From NCBI GenBank assembly GCA_038087875.1, contig CM075993.1:5892001-5956000 (forward strand): 64,000 bases of DNA, read 5' to 3'. The stretch comes from Malacoraja senta. Lineage: Eukaryota. Below the pieces are notes generated by a model. The model made no database searches, was not told the DNA's origin, and saw nothing but the letters and a program-made list of their open reading frames with translations. Both the position numbers and the translations under genes were made by a program. Every line of letters begins with the position of its first letter. Positions within the stretch are counted from its first letter, which is position 1. Below, piece after piece: positions 3,331 to 61,489 of this stretch.

Positions 3331-6300
3331 GACGCGTCGTCCGCCCCGACAGCTCCCAAGAGGGTATACCTGGTTTCGTTAGGTACAGTACAGCCACCGT
3401 ACTGCACTCCATGATTGAATGGCGGAGCAGACTCGATGGGCTGAATGGCCTAATACTGCTGTTGAGGTGTTGAGGTTTGTGTGGGAACCAGGGCCCAGGT
3501 AGTTTGAGGAGAGCGCAGGAACCAGGGTCCAGCTGAGTTTCTGGGGGAAGGTGGTAAACGCAGATGATCTGACCACCAAGCCATCAGGATTTCTGGAGAA
3601 GGGTCTCGACCCAAAACGTCACCCATTCCTTCTCTCCAGAGATGCTGCCTGTCCCGCTGAGTTACTCCAGTTTTTTGTGTCTATCTTCTGTTTAAACCAG
3701 CATCTGCAGTTCCTTGCTGCAGGATTTCTGAGTCATCGGACGGTCAGATTATCAGACAGAATGTGCAGGAGGGAACTGACGAAGGGTTTCTGAAGAAGGG
3801 TTTCGGCCCGAAACGTTGCCTATTTCCTTCGCTCCACAGATGCTGCTGCACCCGCTGAGTTTCTCCAGCATTTTGTGTGTACCTGGGAACTGACAGATGT
3901 TGGTTTCAACCGAAGATAGACACAAAATGCTTCAGGTCTGAAGAAGGGTCTCGACCCTGAAACATCACCTATTCCTTCTCCCCAGCAGATGATCAGAGTT
4001 TTGCGGCGGATGGAGTGGTTGGGCAGGGAGGGTTGTGGAATTGTGCATGGGGCAATTATGTCATGATGGTAAGATGTCCAATCTTCTTTTACTACTTCTT
4101 TAAAATCCCGAGGAAATAATGAATTGCTTCAACCACCAGGAGACACAAATGAAAGGGAGGAAAATAAATAATGAAACGAATAATTAATTGTTTAAAAAAC
4201 AGATCTGATTACCAACTCAAGTGTGGCTACGTAGGTGATACCAATGTCATTCTGATTGGAGCAAAGAGCACACGAACACCTCCACCCTGTTTCCCTTCCG
4301 CACTGATTTTTCGACTCAAGCCCAGTAGCAAACTGTGGACTCTTTCTTAAGGTGCAAAATTACCTTCGATCGATCAGTCATTCCTCAGTGTGAGTATTCG
4401 CTTTACTGTGTACGACGAACCCATTGATATATTTGCTTCTCTGGTCTTTTCAATTTTGTTCAATTGAATTCTGGTTATTTATTTCCTGGTCGGTGCCACT
4501 GTTTCACTTACACGCGATCTCCTGCAGCTTGAACTGTGATAGCGTCGGGTAGCAATGTGCATGTCTGAAAATGTACAAAGCAGAAAGAAACTGGAGATAG
4601 ACACAAAAATGTTGGAGTTACTCAGCGGGGCAGGCAGCGTCTCTGGAGAGAAGGAATGGGTGACGTTTCGGGTCGAGACCCTTCTTCAGACTGATGTCAG
4701 GGGAGAGGGAGATACATAGAAAATGAAGTGTAAGGAGTGAAAATAGGACAAAGGGAATGGAGATCAAGGAAACTATTCAGCATGTCACCATGTGTCATTT
4801 CTTTGAGAAGGAACTGCAGATGCTGGAAAAATCCAAGGTGGACAAAAATGCTGGAGTAACTCAGCGGGTGAGGCAGCATCTATGGAGGGAAGGAATAGGT
4901 GACGTATCGGGTCGAGACCCTTCTTCAGACTGATGAAGGGTCTCGACCCGAAAGGTCACCTATTCCTTTGCTCCATAGATGCTGCCTCACCCGCTGAGTT
5001 TCTCCGGTGCCATTTCTCAGTCAGGCTTCTCCAACTAATCCCACCGACACACTGTATTTTAAAGATGCAGCAAGGAAACGACCCCCTCGTCCCACCGAGC
5101 CCACTCCAACCGTCGATTACCTGTTCGCACTGAGTTAGTTTAATTTAGTTTATTATTGTCATGTGTACCGAGAGACAGTGAAAATATTTTGTTAGCGTGC
5201 TATCCAGTAAAGAAAAGATTCCATGATTACAATCAAGTGCAAAGTCAAAGGATAAAGGTTGCAACATTTAGTGCAAAGACATAAGATTGAAACCTTAGTT
5301 CAATGTTTATAGAAACATAGAAACATAGAAAATAGGTGCAGGAGGAGGCCATTCGGCCCTTCGAGTATTCAATATGATCATGGCTGCTCATCCAACTCGG
5401 TATCCTGTACCTGCTTTCTCTCCATACCCCCTGATCCCTTTAGCCACAAGGGCCACATCTAACTCCCTCTTAAATATAGCCAATGAACTGGCCTTAACTA
5501 CCTTCTGTGGCAGAGAATTCCAGAGATTCACCACTCTCTGTGTGAAAAATGTTGTTCTCATCTCGGTCCTAAAGGATTCCCCCCTAATCTTATTATGCCT
5601 TACTTTAAATCCCACAATTATTGTTTTAAGTAGATTTAGATTTTATTAACATTTTGAATCGGTTTAATTGCAGTTGAAACTGCACAGAACAGGCATCAAA
5701 AGGAGCTATCAGTTAAATTGGTTTGGGCTTGTTTTTAGAATGGAATGTCTGCTATTTGTCGAAGAAATGTATAATTAATGGAATTTTCATCCACTTTCTC
5801 CATAGTTTATAGAATCTAAAAGCTTGCTGTCCTTTCTAGAGCGATACAGTGTGGAAACAGGCCCTTTGGCCCAACTTGCCAACATGTCCCAGCTACACGA
5901 GTCCCACCTGCCTGCATTTGGCCCATATCCTTCCAAAGCTGTCCTATCCATGTATCTGTCTGACTGTTTCTTAAACGTTGGGAAAGTCCCAGCCCCCACT
6001 CCCTCCTCAGGCAGCTCGTTCCATACAACCACCACCCAGGTGAACTTTGTCACATTGCCGCACCCTAAGTGTACACTTATCCAATTGTGTTGTATCTGGG
6101 AGGGCGTAGTCTGTTTCTGCCACAGAATGTTCATTTGTTTTTGATAAGAGCTAGCTATTCCTCCCATTCAAAAAAAACATGTTAGTTATGTTTTGGAGCA
6201 TTGCAGCCACAAGGAGAGATTGGAAAGGGCTGGGTTTGTTTTCACTGGAGAGGAGAAAGCTTAAAGGCTGAGGAGGTGTCTGATGAAAGTGCACAGAACT

Positions 6301-7789
6301 ATCATGGAGATGAGGGCGGCACAATGGCACAGCGGTAGAGCTGGTGCCTCACAGCACCGGAGACCCGTGTTCGATCCTGACCACTGGTGCTGTCTGTACA
6401 GAGTTTGTACATTCTCCCTGTAACCGCGTGGGTTTCCTCCGGGTGCTCCGGTTTCCTCCCACATCCCAAGGACGTACATGTTTGTAGGTTCTGCAAATTG
6501 TCCCTAGTGTATAGGTGATCGCTGGTCAACATTGAAATGGTGGACTGAAGGGCCTGTTTCTACACTATATCTCTAAACAAATATAGAAGGTAGAGAGAAA
6601 AACATATTTTTCCCATGGTGAGGATGTCTAAAGCAAAAGGGTTAAGGTACCTGTCCAAATGTTTTTTAAATATTGTTATAGTACCTGCATTCTATTGATA
6701 CCTCACCCGTCCCTTCCACCAACATCCCTCCCTCCTGCTCTGCATTTCGCTCCTTATTTGACACCATTTTGTCTCCTTTTCCTCTTGGGCCTTTGTCACT
6801 TACTCCATCCATCTCCCAAAACTGAAGAAGGGCCTCGACCCGAAACGTCGCCCAATCCTTCTCTCCAGAGATGCTGCCTGTCCCGCTGAGTTACTCCGGC
6901 ATTTTGTGTCTACCTTCGGTTTTAACCAGCATCTGCAGTTCTTTCTTACACCCTTCACCTGTATCCACCTATCAATAGACAAATAGATAATAGACAATAG
7001 GTGCAGGACTAGGCCATTCGGCCCCGAGCCAGCACCGCCATTCAATGTGATCAAGGCTGATCATCCCCAATCGGTACCCCTGATCATCCCCAATCACTTG
7101 CCAGGCTTTGTACTACCCCCACCTCTCTTCCAGCTTTCACCCCCCCCCCCATTCCATCAATCATAAGAAAGGTCCCAACCCATCGCCTATCTGTTCCCTC
7201 CACAGATGCTGCCTGCCACAGTACTCCAGTACTTTGTGTTTTATTCCAGATTCTAACATCTACAGTTCTTTGTGTCTTAACTATTTATTGATGCTGGTAA
7301 CAGAAATTAGTTTGAAATCCTCCATGTTATGTGATACTTGTTTGGCAATCCCCATTGTGTCCAGCTTAATACAGAGTCAAAAGAAGCAGGAGAATTCAAT
7401 AGAAACAAACACTGCATCAGGTATTAAACAAATCTCTTCAACTTTGACAGGCCTTTACCATATAAGTGACGTTACTGATGATTGAAAGGAACATTTTCAG
7501 CAAACATATTGCCACATATAAGCATTGTGGACGCCTTAGTTACACTCATCATGGACTGGTGTGGAGGGAGCAGGCCATTCGGACCAACAGTGCTGGTCAT
7601 CTTAATGCTCAACAAGAGCTCCTTCCACCTTATATCAAGGGCCTGAGCGGTATGGAGAGGTTGAGCAAGCCTCAATTCCTGGGACTAGTAGGAACGCAGG
7701 ATAAGGGACGATCTCAAAAAGGTGTACAATGTCATTAAAGGAATAGATCGGTTAGACGCACAGAGGTTTATCCCAGGAATGAGCAAGGA

Positions 7790-8945
7790 TGAGAGGTGAT
7801 CTCATTGAAACATGTAACATCGTTAAGGGTTTGGACACGCTAGAGGCAGGAAACATGTTCCCGATGTTGGGGGAGTCCAGAACCAGGGGCCACACAGTTT
7901 AAGAATAAGGAGTAAGCCATTTAGAACGGAGACGAGGAAACACTTTTTCTCACAGAGAGTGGTGAGTCTGTGGAATTCTCTGCCTCAGAGGGCGGTGGAG
8001 GCAGGTTCTCTGGATGCTTTCAAGAGAGAGCTGGATAGGGCTCTTAAAAATAGCGGAGTCAGGGGATATGGGGGAAGGCAGGAACGGGGTACTGATTGGG
8101 GATGATCAGCCATGATCATATTGAATAGCGGTGCTGGCTCGAAGGGCCGAATGGCCTACTCCTGCACCTATTGTCTATTGTCTATTTGTTGGCACTGGGC
8201 CTGCACTCACTGGAGTTTTGAAGAATGAGGGGGGACCTCATTGAAACGTACCGAATAATGTATGTTGGATAGACTCTTGGATAGAGTGGATGTGGAGAGG
8301 GTGTTTCCACTAGTGGGAGAGTCTAGGACTAGAGGGTCACAGCCTCAGAATTAAAGGACGTTCTTTTAGGAAGGAGATGAGGAGAAATGTCTTCAGTCAG
8401 AGGGCGGTGAATCTGTGGAATTTATTGCCACAGAAAGCTCTGGAGGCCAAGTCAGTGGATATTTTTAAGGCAGAGATAGATAGATTCTTGATTAGTGCGG
8501 GTGTCAGGGGCTATGGGGAGAAGGCAGGAGAATGGGGTTAGGAGGGAGAGATAGATCAGCCATGATTCAATGGCAGAGTAGACTTGATGGGCCGAATAGC
8601 CTAATTCTACTCCTATCCCTTGTGACCTATGACCTTATGAGTCTCTTGCCCAGAGTAAGGGAATCAAGAACCAGAGGACAAAGGTTTAAGGTGAGGGGGG
8701 AAAGGTTGAATAGGAACCTGAGGGGTAACTTTTTCACACAAAGGGTGGTGGGTATATGGAACGAGCTGCCGGAGAGGTAGTTGAGGCAGGAACTATCACA
8801 GTGTTTAAGAAACATTCAGGCAGGTGCATGGACAGGACAGGTTTAGAGGTATATGGGCCTAACACCGGCAGGTGGGACTAGTGTAGATGGGGCATGGGCA
8901 GGTTGGGCCGAAGGGCTTATTTCCACGCTGTATCACGCTATGACC
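7790..8945 (+). mobile_element. Three tandem CR1-type LINE 3' ends (different subfamilies)
   Basis: Repeated ESRTRGH..FFSQRVV.LWN.LP coding remnants, each followed by a 3' UTR stem-loop (gggccgaatggcc / gggccgaagggc) and a short tandem-repeat tail such as ctattgt. Confidence 0.9.
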
Positions 8946-11187: not shown

Positions 11188-13491
11188 GTAAGAAGCCAAT
11201 GTCACCTCTAGAGCCTGTGGAAGCGGCAGAGGGCGGGGAGGGCAGAATCGATACCAGCACCGAGCTAAGGTCATTCCTCCTGGGTGGACATATGGTCTGA
11301 AGAAGGGTTTCGGCCCGAAACGTTGCCTATTTCCTTCCCTCCATAGATGCTGCTGCACCCGCTGAGTTTCTCCAGCACTTTTGTCTACCTTCGTTTTTCC
11401 AGCATCTGCAGTTCCTTCTTAAACACATATGTTTATTGTTGGCTGAATATTCAGTTCCCACTACTAGTTTGTTCATGTCCTGGAATTTACTTGAGCGGCC
11501 AATCCTCCCCAACCTTCTCCTCGAGGTCACCTGAACCCAAGGACACAGCGGTAGAGTTGCTGCCTCGCAGCGCCGGAGACCCGGGTTCGATCCCGACTAC
11601 TGGCGCGGTCTGTACGGAGTTTGTACCTTCTCCCCGTGACCATGTAGGTTTTCTCCGAAGTCGATTTCCTCCCACACTCCGTGCAGGTTTGTAGCTTAAT
11701 TGGCTTGGTATGGATGTAAATTGACCCCAGTGTGTGTAGGCAAGATGGTGTTAATGTGCGGTGCGGACTCGGTGGGCCGAAGGGCCTGTTTCCGCGCTGT
11801 ATCTCTAAACTGAACTGCACCAGTGCTGACTGGGACCCTCGCCCCCTCCTCAATGTGGAATTCATGTCATTGGGGGATCTTTAAGGCGCAGGTTGGCAGA
11901 TTGTTGATTAGTGCGGGTGTGTGGACAGAAGGAGGGAGAGATAGATCAGCCGTGATTGAATGGTGGAGTAGACTCGATGGGCCGAATGGCCTAATTCCGA
12001 ATTGGTCATCCCCTTCCCGGGTCGCCGCGTTTCCAAATCTAATGTCGTCGCATTGAACAGTTTAAATCGCTTGATGGCATTCTCGTCACCTCCCCCTCAG
12101 CTAAATATGAACCATTCTACGTTCTCCTTGACCAACGTTCCCTTTGATCTGTGTTTTCACACCTTACCCTTCCATATCTTTATGTCTCCCCCTCCCCCGA
12201 CTCTCAGTCCGAAGAAGGGTCTCGACCCATTCCTTCTCTCCAGAGATGCTGCCTGTCCCGTTGAGTTACTCCAGCATTTTCCAGCATCTGCAGTTCTCTC
12301 TTGAACATTGTGTCTATCTTAAGTCATTTCCAAATGGGTTTACAGAACGGCTGTGAGTGAATGTTAATTAAGACTCCAACGTCTATAGCATCCACCCCCC
12401 CCCCCTCTCCACCCCCTCCCCTCACCCAGTGAGAACTACCGCCGCTGAATAAAACCATTTTGACCCCCTGCCTGCCTGTGTTCATTTGTCCCACTACAAC
12501 TCTGCACGGTCCACTTGGTAGCGATTGTTAGCTGTGCCAGTGTTGCCGTGGAGCCGTGACAAAGTCCGGCAAGGACAAACGAGATGGCTGGAATGTAATT
12601 CTGTGCTGAAATACTGGCGAGAAAACAAAAACTGTGGGACTGTATCACCCACGTGGCACTAGCTTCTCGTTTTCACCCTACAAACAGCCAACAACAGCCT
12701 GTTTCCTTTATCATCCTTAATTTTTTTTGCATAATGGTATTCATGGTGATTTATCTCTCCACATCATCGTCTATATCTCTCGTTCCCCTTATCCCTAACC
12801 AGTCTGAAGAAGGGTCTCGACCCGAACGTCACCCATTCCGTCTCTCCAGAGATGCTGCCTGTCCCGCTGAGTTACTCCAGCTTTTTGTGTCTATCTTCGG
12901 TTTAAAAGCAGCATCTGTAGTTCCCTCCTACACATTGCACATTGGGAAGGCGCCGGTCCTTATTGACAGCAAGCCCATCTGTTCTCCGGCGTGCGTCAAA
13001 TCCGAGGCGCTTTAACCTGGGATTAGACTCTGTAATCCGGTGGGAATCTCGGGCCAAGATTACGGCTGTAGTTGTTCAAGAAATGAAACAACCCAGTCAG
13101 GTTCCAAATACACAGTGCTGGAGGAACTCAGTGGGCGAGGCAGCGTCTGCCATGGAAATGGGCAGACGGTGTTGGGGGTCGGGCTCAAACAATGTAGGAA
13201 GGAACTGCAGATGCTGGTTTAAATTGAAGATAGACACCGAATGCAGGAGTAACTCAGCGGGATAGGCAGCATCTCTGGAGAGAACGAATGAATGGGTGAC
13301 ATTTCGGGTCGGGATCCATCTTCAGACTCAAACTGGTTGTTGAGTGTAGAGTAACAGATTATTAGCTCCCTAGGTACAGGGCATCTTTCACCATATGTCT
13401 TTTAGCATTTTGCTTTCCGATTCTAGACATGGTTGAAATGGAATTTTTTTTTAGAAGGTCTCACTTTGCAGGTTGCTAATTGATTTTCACG

Positions 13492-15803: not shown

Positions 15804-16348
15804 ATCTGTTTGTGCTGGAAGACTGCAAGTGCTGGTTTAATCTGAAGATACACACAAAATGCTGGAGTAACTCAGCGGGGCAGGCAGGATCTCTGGAGAG
15901 AAGGAATGGGTGACGTTTCGGGTCATTCCCGTTCTCATCCCTTCTCTCCCGAGATGCTGCCTGCCCCGCTGAGTATCTGTTTGTGCACGTGTGTGTCTCT
16001 GTCATTGCACATTAATTTGGGGTCTCGGGCAGCTTTAATTGACCATCCCAAAGTGGGTTGAGCAAGGCCCTGAGAACACAACAATTCTGAATGGACCCCA
16101 ATAATAATTTCAATTCTTAGTTCTTATGAGCATCCATGGCAATGTATAAAATGCATCATCCCCCAGGCACTACAATCCTCTCTCGACATCTCCCTCCTCC
16201 TCTCAGACACCTAGTTCTAACACCTCCTTCATCGATTCATTGTTGATTTTCACTATCTATGTTCCTGGGGAGAACCTTGAGCATCTTTGCCATTGAAAGT
16301 CCTACATAAACGTTGTGGTTGTGCCTCTGTTCCTCTTTATATTCTCAG

Positions 16349-20135: not shown

Positions 20136-21680
20136 CTTATGATCTCGTCCCACCCAGAGATGGACCACAGCTTACAATGGAACACCATCCATGACCTTGA
20201 AGCCTTGCATAGGAGTCCACACAGCAGAAACACCTCTTCTCTCTCACACCTCTCCATGCTTTTTCACCTTCAACAATCATTCACTTCATACCGTATCTGG
20301 ATAGGAAGGGCTCAGAGTGATTTGGGCCAAATGCAGACAAGTGGGATTACCCTGGCATGCCAACTCAGTCAGTATGGACATGGTGGGCCGAAGGGCCTGT
20401 TTCTGTGCGGTATAGGTCTATGACTCATGGCACCACTGCATGCAAGCACTAGAAATGCAACACCTGCCCTTTGATCACTTCCCTTCCGGACAAACAGTCC
20501 TTCCATCAACCATCATCTATTGCAACAAGTGATGGCTCCCACTGATTGTCGCCGGAAGCTTGCGTCCTTTTCAGCACGGACGATGACAGCGAAACATGGA
20601 AGATGGACAGGAAAGAAGAAGAAATCTGCAATAATAACCACAAGTTTCCAATTGCCTGTCACTTCAATTCTCATCTCACTCTTATTCTCGGTCTTTCTAA
20701 TATTTCTCATTCTGCTCCAAACTACAGACCAAAAAAAAACCCATCCTCCATCTGGGCAGTTTGCATCTCTTATTAAACTCCACAATTTCAGATAACCAGC
20801 CTTTCCAGTTTGAGTCTGAAATGAGCAAAACACTGCTGGAGGAACTCAGTGGAAGAATAGACAGACGATGTTTCCGGTTTGGATTCTTCTTCAGATTCCT
20901 CCTTCTTCAAGAACCATTTTCTTGAGTCTGAAGGGTCCCGATCCACAAGGTCATCTGTCCGTTTCCTCCACAGATGCTGAGTTCCTCCAGCACTTTGTGT
21001 TTTGCTTGATATTCCATGATCTGCAGTTCCTTATGTCTACCTTGTGTACTGTTCAACTGCAAAATCTCCTCAAAGTACAACCTACTTTGAAGACTTGTTT
21101 AAGAAGGAACTGCAGATGCTGGAAAAATCGAAGGTAGACAAAAATGCTGGAGAAGCTCAGCGGGTGAGGCAGCATCATAGATGCTGCCTCACCCGCTGAG
21201 TTTCTCCAGCATTTTTGTCTACCTACTTTGAAGACCTCCTCTCTCCATCGAGGGTTCCATGAGATCCTCTCTCACTCTCCTGATTCCTACCATGTTCTGA
21301 CCCAGATTGCGTATCTTTCCTCAGTCTGAAGAAGGTTCCGAACCGAAATGTCACATGATCATTTCCCTTTTAGATGCTGCCTGACCCACACTTAGTTTCT
21401 CTAGCACTTTGTGTTTAGCTCAAGATTTCAACATCTGCAGTCTCTTGTATCTTCACCTTGTGTCTGAGGTGACCCGCTCTGATGCTTCCTAGCTTATCTA
21501 TAAGATACAGCATGGAAATGGGGTCCTTTGGCCCACCCAGTCCATGCCGACCATAGATCACCTGTTCCCACTAGTTCTACGTCACCCCACTTTCTCATCC
21601 ACTCCCTACACACTAGGGGTAATTTACTGAGGTTAATTAAACTACAAACCTATTTTGACTTTTCCGTTTCCTAATTGCAG

Positions 21681-26058: not shown

Positions 26059-28717
26059 TCGCTGGTCGGCGCGGACTCAGTGGGCCGAAGGGCCTGTTTC
26101 TGCGCTGTATCTCTAAGCTAAAACCTAATTAAACAAAACCACTCCAAGCTCCCACATCCTCTTCTTTGTAAGAGAATCTCCCCTTGGTTCTTGCCCGTCT
26201 TGCCCCTGAGTGAATGCAATCTCACACTCCCTCCATCTGGCATCAGAATTGTTAGTTTACCCGTTTGAGCTCGATAACCAAGCCAGCACCGTGTTCAAGT
26301 GAAAGAGCAACAACTAGGCTCAAAGTACTGGAGTAACACACCAGGTCAGGCACCATCTATGGAGAACATGGGGAGGTTTGGGGTCGGGACCCTTCTTCAG
26401 GCATCAAATGGGAGCATCACGGTGGCACAGCTGCAGAGGTTCGATCCTGACCTCGGGTGCTGTCTGTGTGAAGTTTATATGTTCTCATTGTGACTGCGTG
26501 GGTTTCCTCCGGGTGCTCCGGTTTCCTCCACATCCCAAGGACGAGCGAGTTTGTAGGTTAATTGGCCTTCTGTGAACTGCCCCTGGTGTGTAGGGAGTGG
26601 ATGAGAAATTATGAGCGGGTGATCGATGGTCGGCATGGCCTCAGTGGGCTGAAGCCTCGGTTGGACAGGGTGGGGGAGAGGGGGTGAGGCAGGGATGAGG
26701 AATCAGGGTGGGAGGGGGGGGGGTGAGGGGAGGAAACTGTCAACTCCTGTGCATATGGAACCCTCCTCTGCAGTCCCTCTGCCCCACAAGTGTGACTGGG
26801 AGAGGGCCACAGCCAGTGTGGGACTTCCTCAGCTGAGCGGGTCTCTGCTCCGAGTAGAGCCTGCCCCTCACACCAGCCATTCCCCGAGAAGCCCGCGCTC
26901 ACTCTGGGCTCCTCGCTACACTGACCTTCCCTTCACCCCATGTCTGAAGCTCTGCAGAGCAGCACAGGGGACTCCGAGCTGTTTCTGGAGTACCTCAAAC
27001 TACTGGAGTACCTGGAGTACCCGGAACACCACAATTAATAAAAGTGATGAGCGAGAGGAAACCAATAAGTCTTTATGTGACTTATCAATCCAATAATATC
27101 ATGGGAACTGGTTGGTAAGTACAGGTGTCCATTGTTGTAGGAAGGAACTGCAGATGCTGGTTGAAACCGAATATAGACGCAAAATGCTGGAGCAACTCAG
27201 CGGGACAGACAGCATCTCTGGAGAGAAGGAATAGGTGACGTTTCGTGTCGAGACTCTGCTTCAGAGTCTGAGTTACTCCAGCTTTTTGTGTCTATCTGAA
27301 TCTCTTGTCCAGCTCTGACTCGGACATGTATTGGATCTTTTTGGAAGTGCAATCCTGTCACCCATTCCTTCTATCCACAGGTGAACATTGGTTGGGTGTC
27401 TGTAGACAACCTATACTGAGAATATAGGTGGAGGCAAGGCTAAATGGAGGCAAGGCAGGTTACAACGTTATTAGGCCAGGGAGAGCCTGTTCCTGTGCTG
27501 GACTGGTGGTCTTGGGCGATTGGGGACCAGAGCAGAATGGGATAATGGCAGATGATAGCATCAAGTGGGGAGAGAATGGTGATGTCATGGTAGAAGGCCA
27601 TTTGGCCCGTCGTGTCTGTACCAGCGCTACAGAAGAGGGATTTGACTCCCCATCCCATGGCCCTTCCATTCAGCTGACTTCCAGCACCACTGTTCAATCT
27701 GTCACCACTACTCGCCCAGCACCACATTCCAACCCAAACACTCACTGCTTTTCACACAAAGACACTCTTCATCTCGGTTTTGCTTGCAATGCTTTGCCAA
27801 CCACCCTCAGTCTCTGACCCCTGGTTCTGGATTCCCTCTGACAATGGGAACCGTTTCTATCGACTCCGCACCATTGAGAATATTGAACCCTCTCACTGAT
27901 CTCCCTACAACCGCCTTTGTTCACTGAACGACAATCCCGACTTTGTCAGTCTTACGTTGAGAACTAAAGCCTCTCGGCCCTGCAGTCATCTTGTGAAATC
28001 CCACCTGCCAAACCCTTCCTTGTCCTCCTGAAATCCTTGTTCCCTGTGGTTTTGAACATTCCAGATTCCCGGGGCGGCAGGGAGACACCCCGCGTCACGA
28101 CCCGACCACAACGGGACAACCTCTTTTCAGGCTGTCGCCGAAAATGTCGACCAAGTGGGACAGGCCCTTAAGGTGTACCATGACTCAGTCATGATCAAAG
28201 GGAGGAGCAGACTCGATGGGCTGAATGGCCTAATTCAGCTCCTATGCCTCAAGGTCTTAAAACCATCGTATTAGTTGGATACAATTTGCCTTCAAGATTA
28301 TGTATGCTGCCATTCACTAATCTTGTAGGAAGGAACAGCAGGAACACTGAAGATAGACAAAAAATGTTGGAATAACTCAGCAGGACAGGCAGCATCTCTG
28401 GAGAGAAGGAATGGGTGGCGTCTCAGGTCGAGACCCCTCTTCAGACTCCTCTTCAGTTTGAAGAAAGGACTCGACCCGAAACGTCACCCATTCCTTCTCT
28501 CCAGAGATGCTGCCTGTCCCGCTGAGTTACTCCGGCATTTTGTGTCTGTCATTCTCTAATCTTCCCTTACTGAAGAATCCAGCATCTGCAGTTCCTTTGG
28601 GGCCCAATGGCCTGTTCTGTGCTGTACGTTCCATGCAACTTTACATTTTTCACCAATGTCGTGAGCGTCGGATGTTTGGATGGAAGCCGAGTGCTCATGT
28701 GAACCATGTTCCCCCAG

Positions 28718-28852: not shown

Positions 28853-29559
28853 GTACCGTAACCCCGAGAGGCACCGAGCCTCACCGCACAGCGCACAGAG
28901 GCCATCTCCGCACCCTAGACTGATACAAAGTGGTGGAGTAACTCAGTGGGTCAGGCAGCATCTCTGGAGAAAGATAAAATGTGACGTTTTGGGTCGAGAC
29001 CTTTTCTTCAGACTGAGACTCAGGGGAGAGGGAAACTAGAAGTATGAAAAGGTTCAGAACAAATTAGAGCCGGCACCGATGACCAAGGAAAGGTGGAGCC
29101 CACAATGGTCCATTGTTGACTGTGGAAGGGGTGATAACAAAGGGATATCTGGATGCGAACAGTGGAACTAGCAGGACGACTAGGGTGGGGGAGGGATGGA
29201 GAGAGAGGGAATGCAAGGGTTACTTGAAATTGGAGAAATCAATATTCATACCGCTGGGTTGTAAGCTGCCTGTCTGGTGTTGAAACAGGGGACCCTAACA
29301 CCACTTCTCTGTATCTGACTCACATTTGCCCCTGCCCTGGGAGTGAATGACGGCACACTCGAGAGGAAGATATACTTTGTGTCTTGTCCTAACTTATCAA
29401 ATTGTGCTTCTGATTCTGACGGATTCTGGCAACTTGGCAAATTGAATTTCACTACACCAATTGGTGTATGACAATAAATGAACCTTTGAACCTTTGAGAT
29501 GTTAAATGTTCAGAGCCAAGAGGCACACATCTGCAACTTGTATTATCCAGGGCATGGGA

Positions 29560-30022: not shown

Positions 30023-30094
30023 AAAGGGCCTGTCCCACGAGCACGCGACTGCATGCGGCAAGCACGACCTAACGTGGTCGCTTGAGCCGTGCGG

Positions 30095-30294
30095 NNNNNN
30101 NNNNNNNNNNNNNNNNNNNNNNNNNNNNNNNNNNNNNNNNNNNNNNNNNNNNNNNNNNNNNNNNNNNNNNNNNNNNNNNNNNNNNNNNNNNNNNNNNNNN
30201 NNNNNNNNNNNNNNNNNNNNNNNNNNNNNNNNNNNNNNNNNNNNNNNNNNNNNNNNNNNNNNNNNNNNNNNNNNNNNNNNNNNNNNNNNNNNNN
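30095..30294. other. Assembly gap (200 N)
   Basis: Run of N. The true gap size is unknown. It truncates the GPCR C-terminus and probably hides the CKMT1 3' exons. Confidence 1.
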
Positions 30295-33410: not shown

Positions 33411-34500
33411 ACATGTACCAATTAAGGTGGAGTGAAATTTGAGTTACCATACAGCCATACCAAGTGAAAAGCGAAATACACACAGCTCATAAAATAAACA
33501 TTAACATAAACATCCGCCACAGTGGAATCAACATTCCTCACTGTCACTCTGTTGGTTTACAAACACTGCAGCAGGCAAGGGCCGTTTTGCACAGACATGT
33601 TATCAAAATCCACAAAAATCCACTCTCAAGATAATCAAAATCATTATTTTTTGCACAATGTCATAAGACATCTACATTATCTATATTTTGTGTAATTGTC
33701 TATCCATGATCAATATTTTCATACTAAATATCTGACTAAAAACTATGTGCTGTGGAAGTTTTTAGTCAGATATTTACTATGAAAATATTGATCATGGATA
33801 GACAATGGATGACTATGATGGAAGGCAATAAAGTTCAATCATCTTCCTCCTTTGTTCACCCGTGGTCGGGGCCTTGAACTCTCAGTACTTGTCGTTGCCG
33901 ACAGCCGCAGTTCAAGCCCGAAATGTGCCATGGAATCATTTAAATCTACCTGGATTTTTAGACCCACGTACCTGACCTTCCATCTACCTCACTGGAGACC
34001 TTTCAACCATCTTTAATCAGACTTTAATGTTATATCTTGCACGAAACGCTGTACCCTTTATCTGTGCACTGTGGATCACCTGAGTGTAATCATATACGGT
34101 CTTTTCTTTGACTGGATAGCATGCAATCAAATGCTTTTCACCGTGACAATAAGAAAACTAAACTATCTCAGGATTTCTAACCCCTGCCCTTTAGGCTCAA
34201 TTAATTCGTTTTTGTAGTGCAGAACACAAAATGCTGGAGTAACTCAGCGGGACAGGCAACAAAGGCTGACTTATTCCAGCACTGTGTGTTCAATGCAAGG
34301 TTCCAGCATCTGCAGTTCCTTTGTGCAGGAAAGAACCGTAGATGCTGGTTTAAATCGAAGGTAGACACAAATGCTGGAGTAACTCAGCGGGACAGGCAGC
34401 GTCTCTGGAGAAAAGGGATGGGTGAGGTTTTCGGGTCGAGACCCTTCTTCAGGCTGATCCTTGTGCACCTATTTTTAAAGTGTTGATACTTTAACATATC

Positions 34501-35706: not shown

Positions 35707-36530
35707 GAATTGTCAGCCAGAAGTAAATGAAGAGGTATATCAAACCATGACTTCCCGTCTAAGGGCAAGAGGCTAACAGGGTGAAGGGAACCAACTCATC
35801 CAAACCAGCCCAACACGATGACTTCATGGGCAAGCCACCAGGTCTCGGTCTTTAGAAGAAACTAAATTGGGAAAATTTGGTCCTAAACACCTCTGTGTCC
35901 TTGTGAATCAATGACAATCCCTCTTTTATTTCAAACACATACTTGCCCGAGAAAAGCTAAAGCCGGGCAAGTTAACACATGTTGCTCAACAGAAAATCTT
36001 ACATCACCTTGAGAAGAGAGAACAGCCCGACTATTGTTAACTCTAGTGTAGGGAAGGAACTTCAGATGCTGGTTTCAAACCGAATGCAGACACAAATAGC
36101 TGGGAGTAACTCAGCGGGTCAGGCAGCATCTCTGGGGAGAAGGAATGGGTGAAGGTTCGGGTTACATCAATCTCTGGTTTCTGGTTCTCTTTCCCTGACT
36201 CTCAGTCTAATGCCCTGTCTCACGGTGCGAGTCCATCCACGAGTGATCCGAGTTTAAAACAAATCAAACACGTAGAATTAACGTAGCAGGGGACGTCGGA
36301 ACTCTGAACGCCAACGGCAGGTACTCGGAAACTGTTAACTTGTGAAATCTTTCACACGATGAAAGATTTTCCACGAGTCAAATTGACTCTTGAAGTAAAC
36401 ATTTTCAACTTTAAAACTCGTTGTACGAACGTAAGTAGCCCGTGAGTTTACCGCAGTGACTCGTGAGTCTACCGTGGGCACTCTTTAACTCACCGGACAG
36501 GCAGATCCTATGCTCGCTGTTCGGATTTTT

Positions 36531-36565
36531 GGTCTGAAGAAGGGCCCCGACCCGAAACGTCACCC
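36531..36565 (+). ncRNA. Minimal hammerhead-ribozyme-like motif in the Penelope-derived repeat (representative copy)
   Basis: ggt-CTGAAGA-a-GGGcccc gaCCC-GAAAC-GTC-acc: both conserved core boxes, a stem II hairpin, palindromic ACGT stem III, GUC triplet and ggt/acc stem I. Confidence 0.6.
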
Positions 36566-38274
36566 ATTCCTTCTCTCCAGAGATGCTGCCAGTTACTCTA
36601 GTTATTTGTGTCTATATTAAGTTAACTTTGTGACCTTACCAGTCCTGCTCCACAGCCCCTGGTGCGAGTATTCCCCGGTGTGGGGAGTTTGTGGCCCCGA
36701 TCACAGGTCGGGGCAGTTTTTGACCCGGGCTTCGCCGCTGGTGATCTGTCCTCTGAGAGGGAGCGCTGTTCCTGGGGTTGGTGGTCCCTGGGGTGACATT
36801 CCTCCCCTACTGCTGAGGAAGCAGACCGTTTCCTGTTTCTGTCCCGTGTTCCTTTGTCCAATCCCTTTGGCATTCCCGCCTCCAGTCTGTGCACATTGTC
36901 AGAGCTGGGATAATGGGATGACAAACGTGGATCACCAGGCTTAAGAACAGCTTGTTTCAGAAGGAACTGCAGATGCTGGAAATCGAAGGTAGACTAAAAA
37001 TGCTGGAGAAACTCAGCGGGCGAGGCAGCATCTATGGAGCGAAAGGAATGGGTGATGTTTCCTATTTCCTTCGCTCCATAGATGAGTTGGTTCCCTTCAC
37101 CCTGTTAGCCTCTTGTCCATAGATGCTGCCTCGCCCGCTGAGTTTCTCAGCATTTTTGTCTACCTTCAAGAACAGCTTCTTACCCACAACCAGCAAGCTG
37201 CCCAACACTACCTCAGCTGTGAACCATGCACTGATTCACTTACTGATCTTTTCTTTTGTGTTTATTATATATTATTTTTTGGTGAATTGTGTTTAGTTTA
37301 TTGTCACGTGTGCCGAGGTACAGTGGAAGGCTTCGGTTGGTGTGCTAACCAGTCAGCGGAAAAAGACAATCACAAAATGCTGGAGTAACTCAGCGGGACA
37401 GTCAGCGTCTCTGGAGAGAAGGAATGGGTGACGTGGATAAATCCGTGGATATATCCGTGGATATATCGTAACGGCTCGTTATGCCAGCCGTGGGTACTCG
37501 GGGCATCAGGTAAGTCGGGGCGTTTTTTCCAGCGTGATGAAAAATGTCCACGAGTTTTAAAAAATAGCCCCGAGTACCTACGGCTGGCACAACGAGCCGC
37601 TACGATATATTCCACGGCCTCCTACGGCCTCGTTACGAACATTCTGCGAGTTTGAAAACTCGGGGGAATTCGCGAATAACTCGGGGAGAGTGGGACAGGC
37701 CCTTAATGGAGTGGAGAAAACCAGCGAGCAAAGAGAGAACAGGATGGAGAAACTAATGGAACAGCAGAGATGAGCTAGAGGGAGATCAGAGATCAGTGCG
37801 GTGCAGATGATCAGTGCAGGGGACCCGGCAACAAGAAGGCAGTGGAAGAGGCGAGCCATGATCACAATGAATGGCGGTGCTGGCTCGAAGGCCGAATGGC
37901 CTCCTCCTGCACTGATGTATACTTTCTATGTTTCTATGAAAGGAGAAATGAGAGGGTTAAGTTTCCGAGCTCTATTTCCTTGTTGCATTGCACATTGTCT
38001 TAAGGCAGTTCCGCTAATTGTTTTTATTAATCCATTGAGGGAGGGGGGTGGGGGCAGCCCAGCAACACGAGTTATTTCAAAGCAAATCTGAACAAGCCTC
38101 TTTCAACTTCCCCCAACTTTTAATTATAAAGAGAACATTCAAAGCATTTCATTCTGAGGTCAGATTCCAGGCTTGAAACAAGCAACTTCTCTGGGTAGCG
38201 TGAATGAGGAAGTGGTGGGGGAGAAGGAGACTGGGCTTCATGCTTACACCCACCACATGCACGGTTGAACAACT

Positions 38275-39533: not shown

Positions 39534-39761
39534 TGTAATGGCGCCTGTTGGCGTACGCAGAGGTCGTACCTGGCGTTCGGAAGCCGCAGTCACGTGCCTC
39601 GGCAGGGGCCGCTTGTTTCGCACGGTTTTTCACTTGCGCGCGTTAGTTCAGCGCTGACCACCGCTGTGGGCAGACGTGTCTGTAGAACCTGTATACTGGA
39701 TATCGAGCTTGTGAATAAAGATCTGTTGGAAACCCCAGTTGTCGTTCTTCAGACCGCCAAA
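39534..39761 (+). mobile_element. Probable solo LTR (Gypsy-like)
   Basis: Starts TGTA, contains AATAAA near its 3' end, is flanked by a 4-bp duplication AGGT, and interrupts the Penelope-tail motif ggataggtgacg; the 3' CA is not preserved. Confidence 0.55.
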
Positions 39762-40126
39762 AGGTGACGTTTCGGGTCGAGACCCTTCTTCAGTCTGAGA
39801 GTCAGGGGAATTATAAACAGGTTGGCCGCTTAGTTTAAAGATACCCCTGCCTGGGGAAAGAACAGCTCCCCCCGAAGAGTTTTGTAAAATCCAATGAGGG
39901 ATTACAGAGATAAGGAGGAAGGAGGACTATGGGATCCTATGTAAAATGGCGCTGAGGTAAAAGATTGGCCTCAGTCAGGGGTTCTGGGGAGAAGGCAGGA
40001 GAATGGGGTTGAGAGGGAAAGATAGATCAGCCATGAATGAATGGCAGAGTAGACTGGATGGGCTGAATGGTCTAATTCTGCTCCTAGAACATAAACATTT
40101 GAATGATAACGCAGGACCTGAAGGGC

Positions 40127-41400: not shown

Positions 41401-42344
41401 ACCATGCCAGGATAAACTCGACATGATTCACATCCCTCCATTCCCAGTATCCATGTTCCCATCTAAAAGCCTCTTCTGTGCCCGTATATCTGTCTGCACC
41501 AGCACTCCTGGCAGTGCTTTCTAACCACCCACCACACTGTGTAAAATATACTTGCCCCCTCCACATCTCCATTAAAATCTACCCCTTTCGCAGGTGGTTG
41601 TCACTAGTAGTTTGCTGTTGAATCACATCTGATTTATGTCCCTGAAGCAGTGTAGAAATGCCCCTGGGGGAGTTTTACCTCTTTGATGCAATTTTTTTTC
41701 CGTATCGTATCTCTGCCTCGACCGCCCCCGATCGCAGGAGCTTCAACCGCCCCGACTGCGGACGGTTCGACTGCCCGGACCGCGGGAGAAAAGGAGGAAG
41801 AAGATAAGACTTTATTGCCTTCCATCACAGTGGGGAATGTGGTGGAGCCACTGTGGTGGAAGTTTATGTTAAATTTCATGTAATTGTGCATCTTGTTGCT
41901 AGTTTTGGTATGACTGTGTGGCAAATCAAATTCTTTATATGTTGCAAAACATACTTGGCTAATAAAATTACAAATATGACTAAAGATTGTGTTTCAATAG
42001 ACCCGGAGGTGGAGGGGGAACTAAAATAGACCGTAACACTGGCAGAGTGTTTCCGACATGCGCAGGCATGGTCTACACGCACACGCGAGCTCACAACATA
42101 CACACACAAACACGCACACACAAGCACAAACACGCACAGACGCAGTCCATGCTAGGGAGGACAGAAATGCTGGAGAAACTCAGCGGGTGAGGCAGCATCT
42201 ATGGAGCGAAGGAAATAGGGTTAGGGTTTCCTTTGCTCCATAGATGCTGCCTCACCCGCTGAGTTTCTCCAGCATTTTTGTCTACCTTCGATTTTCCAGC
42301 ATCTGCAGGTCCTTATTAAACAAAGTCCATGCTGGGGAATAGTT

Positions 42345-42929: not shown

Positions 42930-43379
42930 CTGTAAATTTAAAGAGAAGTTGTACTTAGTAGACATTCAACGGTTATTCGCCTGCAGTTATAGGTGGAGCT
43001 GTGGTAGATTTGCTGCCTCACAGCGCCAGAGACCCGGGTTCGATCCTGACTACGGGTGCTGTCTGTACGGAGTTTGTACGTTCTCCCCGTGACCACGTGG
43101 GTTTTCTCCGGGATCTCAGGTTTCCTCCCACACTCCAAAGATGTACAGGTTTACAGGTTAATTGGCTTGGTGGAAATGTAAATTGTCCCTTGTGTGTGCA
43201 GGATAGTGTTAGTGGTCGGTGTGGACTCGGTGGGCCGAAGGGAATGTATCTCGGAACTAAAACTAAACTAGAGCGACTGTATCAGCAACAAACAGCTGGC
43301 GGACCTCAGCAGATCAGGCAGCATGGGTGAAGGGAAATGGACAGATTAATTTCTTAGCAATAGACTTGATGGGCGGGAA

Positions 43380-43565
43380 GAAGAAAGGAAGAGGAGGAGC
43401 CAGAGGGCTGAGGGGGAGTTGGGAAGGGGAGGAGACAGTAAGGGCTACCGGAAATTGGAGAAGTCAATGTTTATGCCGCTAGGGTGCAGACTGCCCAAGC
43501 GGAATATGAGGTGCTGCTCCTCCAATTTCCGGTGGGACTCACTCTGGCAATGGAGGAGGCCCAGG
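43380..43565 (-). mobile_element. Penelope-like element GIY-YIG C-terminal fragment (others at ~20520-20800(+), 28920-29270(-))
   Basis: LGLLHCQSESHRKLEEQHLIFRLGSLHPSGINIDFSNFR* matches the R..LE...I..L..L.P.G.N end of PLE endonucleases. Confidence 0.82.
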
Positions 43566-44170
43566 TGGAGTGCCATCTGTGGAACATTGTAGGCTGCTTT
43601 AAGGAGACCCTTGTGTATAAATTGTGTATCGGGGAAGTGAGGCTGGTGAGCGGTGAGATTCTGACCATCACCCGGCCCACTCTGGACAATAGGAATCTCC
43701 CACTAAAGGAAAGAATGCATAGGGACTCTGGCCGACCAGAGTCAGCGTGTGGCTGAGCCCTTGTTGGCGGTGACTGTGGTGGCCAGTGCAGACACCGGCC
43801 AGGGTTGGCCAAGATGGCCCGTTGTCATAAGATCACAAGTGATAATAGAATTAGGCCATTCAGCCCATCAAGTCTATTCTGCCATTCAATCTACAGGCTG
43901 ATCTATCTCTCCCTCCTAACCTCATTCTCCTGCCTTCTCCCCATAAACCCTAACACCCATACTAATCAAGTATCTGCCAATCTCTGCCTTAAAAATATTT
44001 CACTGACTTGGTCCCCACAGCCGTCTGTGGCAAAGAATTCCACAGATTCACCACCCTCTGACTCAAGAAATTTCTCCTTAACTCCTTCCGAAAAGAACAT
44101 CCTTTAATTCTGGGGCTGTGTCCTCTAGCCCTGGACTCTCCCATTCTCCATCGTTGGCGCACACACGTAC

Positions 44171-49304: not shown

Positions 49305-49387
49305 CTGCAAGACACGTTAAGAAGCAATTCACAAACAGAGGGCAGGGGTTTTGTCAAAATTAAAAGGTTTCACCCCGACGTAGATCC

Positions 49388-49800
49388 CCCATTGTCAGTG
49401 AGGCCCAGCGCAAAGTGGATGAACAACACCTCATATTTCGCTTGGGCAGCTCCCACCCCAGCGGTATGAATATTGTTTCTCTAACTACAAATAACTCTTG
49501 CTTTCCCTCTCTCCATCCCTCCCCCCTTCCCAGTTCTTCGACCAGTCTGACTGTCCTCGTTTACATTTTATCTGTTTGCTTTGTTGTCACCTTCACCAAA
49601 CTAACAATGATCTATTCTACATTTTCCTTGATCCCCGTCCCCTTTGTCTCATTTTCACACCTTACACTTCCTTATCTCTGTATTTCCGTCTCCCCTGACT
49701 CAGTCTGAAGAAGGGTCTCGACCCGAAACGTGCCCCATTCCTTCTATCCAGAGATTCTGCCTGTCCCGCTGAGTTACTCCAGCATTTTGTGTCTGTCTTC
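49388..49800 (+). mobile_element. Penelope-like retroelement 3' fragment: GIY-YIG endonuclease C-terminus, 3' UTR and hammerhead-like terminus
   Basis: QRKVDEQHLIFRLGSSHPSGMNI, then a pyrimidine-rich UTR, then CTGAAGAAGGGTCTCGACCCGAAACGT at 49705. Confidence 0.8.
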
Positions 49801-49920
49801 AAATTATGTCCACTGTATGTGACTGATACAATAAACCCTTTCCTTTTCGTCTGACCCAAAACATCACTTGCCCATTTCCTCCAGAGATGCTGCATGACCC
49901 GCTGAGTTACTCCAGCAATT

Positions 49921-54410: not shown

Positions 54411-54627
54411 GTTACCTGCAGTTGGCCCATAGCCCTCCAAACCCTCCTAATCTATGACTGTTCAAAGATATGGTGTCCAATGACCTAGGCCCCCCTCCCC
54501 AATGCCTCAGCCCCACCCCACACTCTCCCTTCCTCTCCCACCTCCATGGTTGGGCAGCAGACCACCCGTGGGCCTGGTGGCATGAACCCTAGGGTGCCCC
54601 AGGGTGCTTGTTGAGGCACTGACCCAC

Positions 54628-54797
54628 CTGCTTGGCCTTGGACACCAGGATCTTCAGATGCTCCATGGACAGGTCCTGGTCACTGCCCAGAATTTCCAGA
54701 CAGTCGGCAAACTGGTCGTCTGCCATCCCAGCGAGCTGGCTGCTGCTCCAGGCGGCGGGGAAGGTCGCCTTGATGTCAATGCAGTCGGGGCTGCCGT
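54628..54797 (-). CDS. STRC: Stereocilin coding exon
   Basis: tctag|(D)GSPDCIDIKATFPAAWSSSQLAGMADDQFADCLEILGSDQDLSMEHLKILVSKAKQ|gtgggt; TFPAAWS and KAKQ as in mammalian STRC; 170 bp. Confidence 0.93.
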
Positions 54798-60061: not shown

Positions 60062-60261
60062 CCCAGAACATCCGTCTTGGTGAGCATCCAACCAAACGAC
60101 TTGCTGTTTTGCTCGGGGATGCAGTAAGCCTTGATCTCGTCCAGACGGAGCAGCAGATCAGGTTGATTGATTTGCCTGACCTTCCCTTCTTCGACGAAGG
60201 TGACAAGCGGCCCAAGGCTGTCCAGAACCTCACCCGAAACCTCACCCTCTTCTCCGACCCC
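60062..60261 (-). CDS. STRC: Stereocilin coding exon
   Basis: gatag|GVGEEGEVSGEVLDSLGPLVTFVEEGKVRQINQPDLLLRLDEIKAYCIPEQNSKSFGWMLTKTDVL(G)|gtaggt; resembles mammalian STRC VSGEVLETLGPLV; 200 bp. Confidence 0.9.
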
Positions 60262-61489
60262 CTATCAACAAGAACACAGCCACTTCAGTCAACAACTCTA
60301 TTACCTTTAGTAAGGGTTTAGTTTAGGGATACAGCATAGAAACAGACAATAGACAATAGACAATAGGTGCAGGAGTAGGCCATTCGGCCCTTCGAGCCAG
60401 CACCGCCATTCAATGTGATCATGGCTGATCATCCCCAATCAGTACCCCGTTCCTGCCTTCTCCCCATATCCCTTGACCGCTATCTTTAAGAGCCCTATCT
60501 AGCTCTCTCTTGAAAGCATCCAGAGAACCGGCCTCCACCGCCCTCTGAGGCAGAGAATTTCACAGACTCACCACTCTCTGTGAGAAATAGTGTTTCCTCA
60601 TCTCCGTTCTAAATGGCTTACTCCTTACTCTTAAACTGTGGCCCCTGGTTCTGGACTCCCCCAACATCGGGAACATGTTTCCTGCCTCTAGCGTGTCCAA
60701 GCCCTTTCGGCGACTGCCAGGGACTAGTTGTAACAGCATGGATCTTATAGAAACATATCATATTCTTAAAGGATTGGACAGGCTAGATGCAGGAAAAATG
60801 GTCCCCGATGTTGGGGGTGTCCTGAACCAGGGGTCACAGTTTAACAATAAGGGGTAGGCCATTTATGACAGATGAGGAAAAAGATTTTTACCCAGAGATC
60901 TGTGTGGATCTGTGGAATTCTTTGCCACAGAAGGCCGTGGAGGCCAATTCACTGTATGTTTTCAAGAGAGAGTTAGATTGGGCTAACGGAATCAAGGGAT
61001 ATGGGGATAAAGCAGGAATGGGGTACTGATTTTAGATGATCAGCCATGATCATATTGAATGGCGGTGCTGGTTCGAAGGGCCAAATGGCCTACTCCTGCA
61101 CCTATTTTTCTATGTTTCCAAACGGGCCCTTCGGCCCACTGAGTCCAGGCCGACTATTGATCATCTGTTCACACGAGTGAGTCATTGCACCTCCCATCAT
61201 TGGAAACCTCTGAGCTTTCTTTAGTCAGAAGATAGACACAAAGTGCTGGAATAACTCAGCAGGTCAGACAGCATCTCTGGAGAAAAGGAATAGGTGACGT
61301 TCGGTCATCTAAAAGACTTCTTTCAGTCGGAAGAAGAGGTTCCAACCCGAAACGTCACGGATCCATGTTCTCCAGACATGCTGCCTGACCCGCTGAGCTA
61401 CTCCAGCATGTTGCGTCTATCTTCAGTATAAACCAGCATCTGTAGTTCCTTCCTACACCTTTAGTTGGACTTTATTGGACTACAGTGTT

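What the first reader, a model, noticed from the sequence alone, without database searches (positions are those of the whole stretch)
3781..61360. High-copy hammerhead-ribozyme-like core in the dominant short repeat, linked to a Penelope-like element
Seen: the motif CTGA(A/T)GA-a-GGGTCTCGACCC-GAAAC-GT(C/T) recurs on both strands (+ at ~3790, 3938, 4930, 6822, 11297, 21326, 36534, 49705; - at ~4665-4692, 13300-13328, 28981-29012, 39764-39795). The stem II hairpin covaries (GGGTC/GACCC, GGGTT/GGCCC, GGTT/AACC). At 49388-49735 and 28980-29270 the motif lies just downstream of, and co-oriented with, a GIY-YIG C-terminus. Known: CUGANGA...GAAA-NUH is the hammerhead core, and Penelope-like elements carry minimal hammerheads with a palindromic stem III thought to act as dimers. 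Inference: this skate-type repeat is a PLE terminus with an atypical hammerhead (extra A after CUGANGA, very short stems I and III). Several copies are sense-oriented inside CKMT1 introns.
Basis: partly seen in the sequence, partly recalled or inferred. Interest (0 to 1): 0.7.

Follow-up and report, generated by a model that had tools for sequence, protein, structure and literature searches.

The report
Penelope retrotransposon ends with minimal hammerhead
These repeats are the short end pieces of a jumping gene (a Penelope-like element) and carry a known, stripped-down self-cutting RNA motif; most copies here are broken, and the one unexplained detail is that most begin right at the motif's first bases.

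Summary
The motif is real: 22 core-bearing copies lie in the window. A generic core search gives 12 hits against 0.15 in shuffles. It is the published minimal hammerhead of Penelope-like elements (PLEs; PMC4209133). The extra base after CUGANGA, short helix I and ACGU palindrome are that paper's consensus, not atypical.

PLE origin is well supported:
- three GIY-YIG C-terminal remnants, one 68% identical to a ray RT+GIY-YIG protein
- a ~35-nt tail
- 10 head-to-head inverted pairs
- 7-15-bp target duplications

- stem II is 4 bp plus a tetraloop, with no two-sided covariation
- only 2 of 22 copies are intact, and both GIY-YIG-linked copies cited are broken
- there is no sense bias in the creatine-kinase introns (12+/10-)

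Added observation: 17 of 22 copies start 0-7 nt before the core, not at the cleavage site. They were therefore probably copied from uncleaved RNA with a fixed 5' end. Cleavage was untestable, and RNA reads showed no pile-up of ends. This scan reported the same kind of element before in shark DNA. Verdict: new member of a known kind.

The parts
11295..11424 (+). Complete short unit (130 bp) in intron 1 of the mitochondrial creatine-kinase gene, flanked by a 7-bp target duplication (11288-11294, 11425-11431)
   Evidence: exon positions
11294..11327 (+). Intact minimal hammerhead: C3 at 11297, 4-bp stem II with UUCG loop, ACGU palindrome, cleavage predicted after 11324 (GUU). The outermost helix I base (11294) comes from the host duplication.
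4556..4772 (-). Longer copy with about 80 nt of upstream 3' region and the second intact hammerhead (4659-4692; C3 4689; GUC)
49397..49801 (+). 5'-truncated PLE: GIY-YIG C-terminal remnant (49397-~49490, frameshifted), pyrimidine-rich 3' region, hammerhead with GUG triplet (C3 49705), body; no tail
28917..29270 (-). 5'-truncated PLE of a diverged subfamily (71% to the 49397 copy): last 16 GIY-YIG codons, 3' region, hammerhead with G12 lost (C3 29011)
43288..43570 (-). Third and longest GIY-YIG C-terminal remnant (43440-43570, 41 codons and stop); hammerhead deleted internally, body remnant at 43288-43325.
12077..12307 (+). Longer copy with upstream region; hammerhead destroyed by an internal deletion
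3592..3721 (+). Short unit with tail and target duplication (128 bp); A6 and G12 mutated
3789..3991 (.). Compound of three pieces (3789+, 3876-, 3930+); core intact at 3790 but helix I only 1 bp
4802..5010 (.). Head-to-head inverted pair with 7-bp outer duplication; folds into one long hairpin that pairs both cores
6821..6951 (+). Short unit with tail; starts at C3, no helix I
12791..12940 (+). Short unit with tail; one A of GAAA deleted
13193..13332 (-). Short unit with tail and 7-bp target duplication (136 bp); palindrome mutated
15822..15978 (.). Head-to-head pair, 13-bp outer duplication
21096..21224 (.). Head-to-head pair, 15-bp outer duplication
21317..21441 (+). Decayed short unit, 7-bp target duplication (129 bp)
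27133..27297 (.). Head-to-head pair (6-bp outer match only)
28326..28597 (.). Head-to-head pair, both cores mutated
34322..34458 (-). Short unit with tail and 7-bp target duplication (133 bp)
36530..36618 (+). Short unit; core intact, stem II 3 of 4 pairs
36953..37169 (.). Head-to-head compound, 11-bp outer duplication
39759..39809 (-). Hammerhead-only fragment; core and stem II intact, helix I broken
42160..42322 (.). Head-to-head pair, 10-bp outer duplication
1566..1693 (.). Head-to-head pair, 11-bp outer duplication
61220..61461 (.). Head-to-head pair; core at 61328 mutated

Best explanation
The repeat is the terminal piece (pseudo-LTR end plus optional ~35-nt tail) of an endonuclease-bearing Penelope-like retrotransposon of the Neptune/Nematis type, in a skate- or ray-like genome. 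Shown: the anatomy, target duplications, inverted pairs and link to a GIY-YIG end. Inferred mechanism: the element's RT-endonuclease nicks the target, starts reverse transcription in the tail of the element RNA, and usually stops about 130 nt later at the 5' edge of the hammerhead. When both nicked strands are extended, the two cDNAs join head to head. In the element's own RNA the motif is a weak, dimer- or protein-dependent type I minimal hammerhead that would cut after GUC/GUU. The dispersed copies were made from uncleaved RNA, decay after insertion, and are passive passengers in host introns.
For: The motif fits the published consensus letter for letter (PMC4209133 Fig. S3). A 41-aa remnant is 26/38 identical to P0005 and 82% identical to a Leucoraja protein. 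The related proteins P0004 and P0008 carry RVT_1 and GIY-YIG. A CX2-5CXXC linker lies before the endonuclease in 9 of 10 relatives checked; this marks Neptune/Nematis in PMC8557442. A shark RT+GIY-YIG prediction, P0006, reads through into a peptide that matches the hammerhead frame. There are 10 head-to-head and 3 tail-to-tail junctions among 59 pieces. Outer duplications of 7-15 bp flank 6 of 9 head-to-head pairs tested. Duplications of at least 7 bp flank 5 of 11 tail-bearing copies, against 5% by chance. Inverted pLTRs, tails and such duplications are PLE hallmarks (PMC3846280; PMC8557442). Public runs show the same tail, inverted joints and head-to-tail joints at very high depth. In anole Poseidon, RT starts 111-118 nt after stem II, the hammerhead cleaves only with the protein present, and uncleaved RNA is the main template (PMC11167929). 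The units here end 121-135 nt after C3.
Against: No full-length element could be examined: no genome is held, and pattern scans of three collections found nothing. The RT link therefore rests on protein relatives. No cleavage evidence was found: table 6 lists no place where RNA molecules begin or end (poly(A) reads of a relative, about 6% of the run). Within 180 nt of context, stem II and helix I have pairing probability of 0.01 or less in both intact copies. Unconstrained co-folding of two 34-mers did not give the hammerhead dimer. Core positions are only weakly better kept than others: 16/242 against 45/440 changes, p=0.12; non-CpG 12/220 against 36/330, p=0.03. Copies were also picked by core similarity. 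No Rfam hammerhead family matched at E<=5.
Confidence: 0.88

Rival explanations
1. The motif is a catalytically dead relic even in the active element. It persists as a promoter, splice or protein-binding signal, and the hammerhead shape is incidental.
For: No read ends pile up at the cut site. The fold is not predicted in context. Copies keep the uncleaved core. PMC4209133 reports low activity and does not exclude other functions. Naiad PLEs spread without canonical hammerheads (PMC8557442).
Against: Differences of the second subfamily (3790, 11297) are all hammerhead-compatible: loop changes, U-A to U-G, GUC to GUU. The anole motif cleaves with protein and shows C3/G8 rescue (PMC11167929).
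Confidence: 0.2
2. The ~130-bp unit is an independent SINE-like or retrozyme-like element with its own master copies, mobilised in trans by the PLE, not a by-product of full-length element RNA.
For: Sharp 5' boundary: 17 of 22 copies. Insert length is uniform, 128-136 bp in 5 of 5 copies with duplications. Head-to-tail joints appear in contigs. Retrozymes are proposed to derive from pLTRs (bioRxiv 10.64898/2026.07.22.740005).
Against: 5 of 22 core copies run on into the element's 3' region with the same body sequence. The boundary is shared by more than one subfamily. No tandem array of intact units lies in the window.
Confidence: 0.25
3. Sense copies in the creatine-kinase introns were kept because they cut or regulate the host pre-mRNA.
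For: One intact sense copy lies about 110 nt after the exon 1 donor (11294-11327).
Against: No strand bias (12+/10-). 4 of 5 sense cores in the gene are broken. There is no intact partner for a dimer, and the fold is not predicted in context. The copy has an ordinary target duplication.
Confidence: 0.03

Closest known systems
Minimal hammerheads (min-HHR) of metazoan PLE pseudo-LTRs (Cervera & De la Pena 2014, PMC4209133)
   Same: CUGANGAH, G10.1-C11.1, GAAA, palindromic 15.2/16.2, NUH, short helix I, pyrimidine-rich upstream sequence, position after the GIY-YIG end, mostly single truncated copies.
   Different: Stem II is at the short end (4 bp plus tetraloop). No cartilaginous fish name was found in the supplementary file searched (file 1 not searchable).
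Anole Poseidon element PAc (Frangieh et al. 2024, PMC11167929)
   Same: Hammerhead about 120-130 nt upstream of the tail end; no read ends at the cut site; uncleaved RNA as template.
   Different: Relatives of this element carry the linker zinc finger that Penelope/Poseidon lack. The ORF start could not be placed here.
Neptune/Nematis EN+ PLEs (PMC8557442; structures in PMC3846280)
   Same: C-terminal GIY-YIG, linker motif in relatives, tail, inverted 5'-truncated partner, target duplications, solo pLTRs.
   Different: Only 16-41 C-terminal codons are in the window; the clade was not tested by an RT tree.
Non-LTR retrozymes (bioRxiv 10.64898/2026.07.22.740005)
   Same: Type I hammerhead in a short PLE-derived repeat; reported in the one chondrichthyan sampled.
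   Different: Retrozymes are tandem arrays with a hammerhead in consecutive units and avoid introns in Xenopus. Copies here are single or inverted, and many are intronic.

Membership tests
PLE minimal hammerhead | CUGANGA plus one extra nucleotide before stem II | tested here: met
   majority base at every position in 22 copies; consensus
PLE minimal hammerhead | stem II closed by G10.1-C11.1, followed by GAAA | tested here: met
   4 bp, 87.5% of cells paired in 10 selected copies; no two-sided change
PLE minimal hammerhead | palindromic 15.2-16.2, no stem III loop, NUH triplet | tested here: met
   ACGU then C (19 of 22) or U (2 of 22)
PLE minimal hammerhead | short helix I | tested here: met
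   2 bp in the long form, 3 bp in some copies through a flanking G
PLE minimal hammerhead | located in the pseudo-LTR downstream of the GIY-YIG end | tested here: met
   49705+ and 29011-; P0006 read-through
PLE minimal hammerhead | self-cleavage as dimer or with protein help | not testable with these tools
   no end pile-up in poly(A) reads; fold not predicted in context
PLE minimal hammerhead | core kept better than flanks across subfamilies | tested here: inconclusive
   6.6% against 10.2% changes, p=0.12; selection bias
EN+ PLE (Neptune/Nematis type) | RT followed by C-terminal GIY-YIG in one ORF flanked by two pLTRs | not testable with these tools
   no genome; only C-terminal remnants in the window; RT+EN in relatives
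EN+ PLE (Neptune/Nematis type) | CX2-5CXXC linker between RT and EN | tested here: inconclusive
   present in 9 of 10 relatives; region absent from the window
EN+ PLE (Neptune/Nematis type) | optional 30-40-bp tail | tested here: met
   11 of 22 core copies; loose ends after 49800 in all four runs
EN+ PLE (Neptune/Nematis type) | inverted 5'-truncated partner and target-site duplication | tested here: met
   10 head-to-head pairs; 6 of 9 tested have 7-15-bp duplications
Canonical type I hammerhead (Rfam models) | 6-bp helix I, looped helix III, tertiary contacts | tested here: not met
   no hammerhead family among 48 Rfam matches at E<=5; helix I 2-3 bp
Non-LTR retrozyme | at least two consecutive tandem units, each with a complete hammerhead | tested here: not met
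   none in the window; head-to-tail joints exist elsewhere, integrity unknown

The most novel reading that the evidence does not exclude
The hammerhead sits at the very 5' end of the element's transcript. The start lies at the initiator-like TCAGT that also forms the 5' strand of helix I. RT primed in the promoter-proximal tail runs off this end and mass-produces the ~130-bp units. The ribozyme would then not release or circularise the RNA but act as a protein-gated self-decapping switch that removes the capped first ~30 nt, a feedback brake. Support: 17 of 22 cores start within 0-7 nt of C3, against 1.3 expected (P about 4e-17). Depth rises 34- to 69-fold across this point in four public runs, with no such step at the cut site. 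No exon-like sequence is shared upstream. The distances match the anole element. The start site and the switch are inferred, not shown. A splice acceptor at the same CAG, as in D. virilis, or subfamily divergence upstream could explain part of the step.
Probability: 0.3. Interest if true: 0.5.

Novelty: new member of a known kind. Interest (0 to 1): 0.22.

Why it matters
As a class the motif has been known since 2014, so the finding mainly adds a very abundant batoid family. Its use is practical. What PLE hammerheads do is still open (PMC8557442), and a family with so many target-duplicated copies records which RNA ends were reverse transcribed. The window suggests uncleaved RNA with a fixed 5' end at helix I, which argues against cleavage or circle products as the main template and is cheap to test on a skate genome. 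The head-to-head pairs also put long hairpins into host introns.

Tried and rejected
Searches that gave nothing:
- No genome was available.
- Exact-pattern scans of viral, prokaryote-genome and metagenome contigs gave 0 loci each.
- Rfam gave only sub-threshold matches, the best mostly miRNA models; several lie on the inverted pairs.
- No RNA holder was listed on record among the indexed runs. One raw poly(A) run from the same study as a DNA holder was laid and showed no end pile-up. Its short-unit reads were about equal on both strands, and library strandedness is unknown.
- Earlier-findings look-ups by sequence, by place and by a second word set found nothing.

Ideas tested and not supported:
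- 5' ends made by cleavage: 8 of 37 copies at risk start at +26 to +34, against 2.5 expected (P=0.003 uncorrected, starts partly hand-curated). Only one starts exactly at +29, and several are inversion junctions; inconclusive.
- CpG-driven decay: 13/132 against 48/550 changes, p=0.73; rejected.
- Spliced-RNA origin of short units: no common upstream exon among 17 short copies (top similarities came only from inverted partners), and no GT..AG joint among the 15 of 518 joints shown; not supported, not excluded.
- Element ORF start: none of 220 proteins held showed the unit at an N-terminus.

Other dead ends:
- The last two creatine-kinase exons were not found by motif.
- The identity of the minus-strand gene near 54600-54900 stayed open.
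- The first duplication script under-reported copies and was replaced.
- Lunse et al. (PMC5785218) was not held.
Full report
OBSERVATION. A fuzzy search found the motif at every position listed. A stricter pass gave 23 hits, of which one (20894-) was dropped as spurious, leaving 22 core-bearing copies. Counting pieces without the core, the family has 59 merged pieces covering 4825 bp. A generic core with at least 3 of 4 stem II pairs occurs 12 times, against 0.15 on average in 60 shuffles. Rfam has no hammerhead match at E<=5, as expected for a motif without helix III. Only 2 of 22 copies keep core, stem II, palindrome, NUH and at least 2 bp of helix I: 4689(-) and 11297(+).

ANATOMY. A short unit runs from helix I through the hammerhead (about 31 nt) and a body of about 65 nt to an optional tail of about 35 nt. 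Five single copies have target duplications of at least 7 bp and measure 128-136 bp. That is 5 of 11 tail-bearing copies, against a chance rate of 5%. Ten junctions are head to head and three tail to tail. Six of 9 head-to-head pairs tested share an outer duplication of 7-15 bp, so each such pair is one insertion. Three pairs were folded, and each forms one long hairpin over most of its length. Five core copies extend upstream into a pyrimidine-rich region. Two of them reach a GIY-YIG C-terminus about 210 nt before C3, and a third remnant lies at 43440-43570(-).

RELATIVES. The 41-aa remnant finds a Leucoraja protein at 82%. That protein's endonuclease part finds shark and ray proteins. One of them, P0005, is 26/38 identical to the remnant. 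P0004 and P0008 carry RVT_1 and GIY-YIG. Full-length relatives of 750-1100 aa exist at up to 52% identity to P0005 (a wider search). Nine of 10 checked have the CX2-5CXXC linker, which PMC8557442 gives for Neptune and Nematis (passages). P0006 reads through its 3' region into a peptide matching the hammerhead frame. The host is thus most likely a skate or ray (inference from the named hits).

PUBLIC READS. Window 49330-49850 was laid with one raw poly(A) run and three contig sets (coded organisms, not necessarily this species). Depth covers 49384-49815. It rises 34-, 45-, 36- and 69-fold (X24, X23, X18, X1) between bins 49672-49689 and 49708-49725. It shows no comparable step at the predicted cut (49732/3). 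The tail, inverted joints and head-to-tail joints recur. No place with many molecule ends was listed. These depths are not copy numbers, the reference copy is itself diverged, and only part of each table was shown.

COMPARISON WITH THE LITERATURE. PMC4209133 (main text parts 1-2 of 4; supplementary file 2 parts 1-2 of 3; file 1 not searchable) defines the metazoan minimal hammerhead. Its features are an extra base between 9 and 10.1, G10.1-C11.1, palindromic 15.2-16.2 and a short helix I. Monomers were inactive and multimers weak. The window's motif is that consensus, so 'atypical' is wrong. PMC11167929 (parts 1-2 of 4) shows, for anole Poseidon, internal RT initiation at the tail, extension of both nicked strands, protein-dependent cleavage, uncleaved RNA as template, and no read ends at the cut site. 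PMC3846280 (passages) describes inverted pLTRs, tails, 8-10-bp duplications and solo pLTRs. PMC2377424 (passages) places the D. virilis promoter and a 75-bp intron in the pLTR; PMC4209133 says that intron ends at helix I. PMC6765202 was seen as passages. The retrozyme preprint was seen as part 1 of 5, passages and Discussion; its supplements were not seen and may list chondrichthyan families. Lunse et al. was seen only as a citation. No paper on this family in skates turned up: one search gave 0 papers, and none of the titles listed describes it (listings only). The library lacks most subscription journals, and Repbase could not be searched.

COVARIATION AND CONSERVATION. On 10 hand-picked near-intact copies, stem II is 4 bp and no pair changes on both sides. 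The variation is U-A to U-G in one subfamily plus loop changes. Core positions change in 6.6% of cells and others in 10.2% (p=0.12; non-CpG p=0.03), with a selection bias in favour of the core. Alone, the 34-mer of 11297 folds into helix I plus stem II. In 180 nt of context both helices have probability of 0.01 or less. In the shorter folds, the purine-rich core pairs with downstream pyrimidine tracts instead. This counts against free monomer activity and fits a gated ribozyme.

HOST GENE. Seven exons of a creatine kinase lie on + from 11039 to about 28850. One exon matches mitochondrial U-type slightly better than S-type, so CKMT1 is plausible but not proved. Repeat pieces in its introns are 12+ and 10-. 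One sense core is intact and has no intact partner.

THE 5' BOUNDARY. Seventeen of 22 cores match the long copies for at most 7 nt upstream of C3 (ungapped; 12804 may reach about 11 with a gap). The background rate of 5' ends in the body predicts 1.3. In the five duplicated copies the insert starts 1, 2, 1, 8 and 8 nt before C3. Cleaved RNA would give starts at +29; the excess there is small and smeared. I infer that the template was uncleaved and had a defined 5' end. My odds: a transcription start at the initiator-like TCAGT about 45% (initiator consensus recalled), a splicing-related end at the CAG about 20%, something else about 35%.

VERDICT. This is a new member of a known kind, interest 0.22. 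Three earlier AI notes from this scan reached the same class for shark DNA; they are not independent support.

Noticed in passing
window 29972-31577 (-): A rhodopsin-family GPCR gene (Pfam 7tm_1 on the 31188-31577 piece), apparently in several frames, lies just after creatine-kinase exon 7 on the opposite strand, next to the 200-N gap (30095-30294). It may be nested in an intron, because the last two kinase exons were not found.
   Followed up: partly
window ~36600-58100 (-), e.g. 54589-54900: Exon-like pieces of a large minus-strand gene; recalled synteny suggests stereocilin. Pfam gave only a sub-threshold DUF3741 match and the atlas nothing.
   Followed up: partly
P0003, P0010 (public proteins); P0011 hit only: Predicted skate host proteins (a DCC isoform, neuromedin-U receptor 1, a myocardin isoform) contain pieces of this GIY-YIG C-terminus: exonised repeat fragments or annotation errors.
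   Followed up: no
window 4802-5010, 15822-15978, 21096-21224, 28326-28597, 42160-42322, 61220-61461: Head-to-head pairs form long near-perfect hairpins, three of them inside creatine-kinase introns; possible editing or small-RNA substrates. They explain several weak Rfam miRNA matches.
   Followed up: partly
window 61825-62018: A separate AT-rich inverted repeat of about 190 bp (top Rfam score, MIR8007, far below threshold); possibly a MITE.
   Followed up: no
whole window, e.g. 11540-11796, 32255-32543, 7785-8616, 17982-18408, 50120-50692: A second abundant short repeat of about 270 bp with a tRNA-like head and many LINE-like 3' fragments (labels recalled; counts; ORFs).
   Followed up: partly
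window 49384-49689 in run X24: Reads on the upstream part of the element are about 2:1 or more by first-mate strand, while the short unit is 1:1; a hint of directional transcription of longer copies if the library is stranded.
   Followed up: no
window 11346-11424 (+): In the second subfamily an ATG in the body opens a frame that runs through the tail, as expected if body and tail are the start of the element ORF; no protein held confirmed it.
   Followed up: partly
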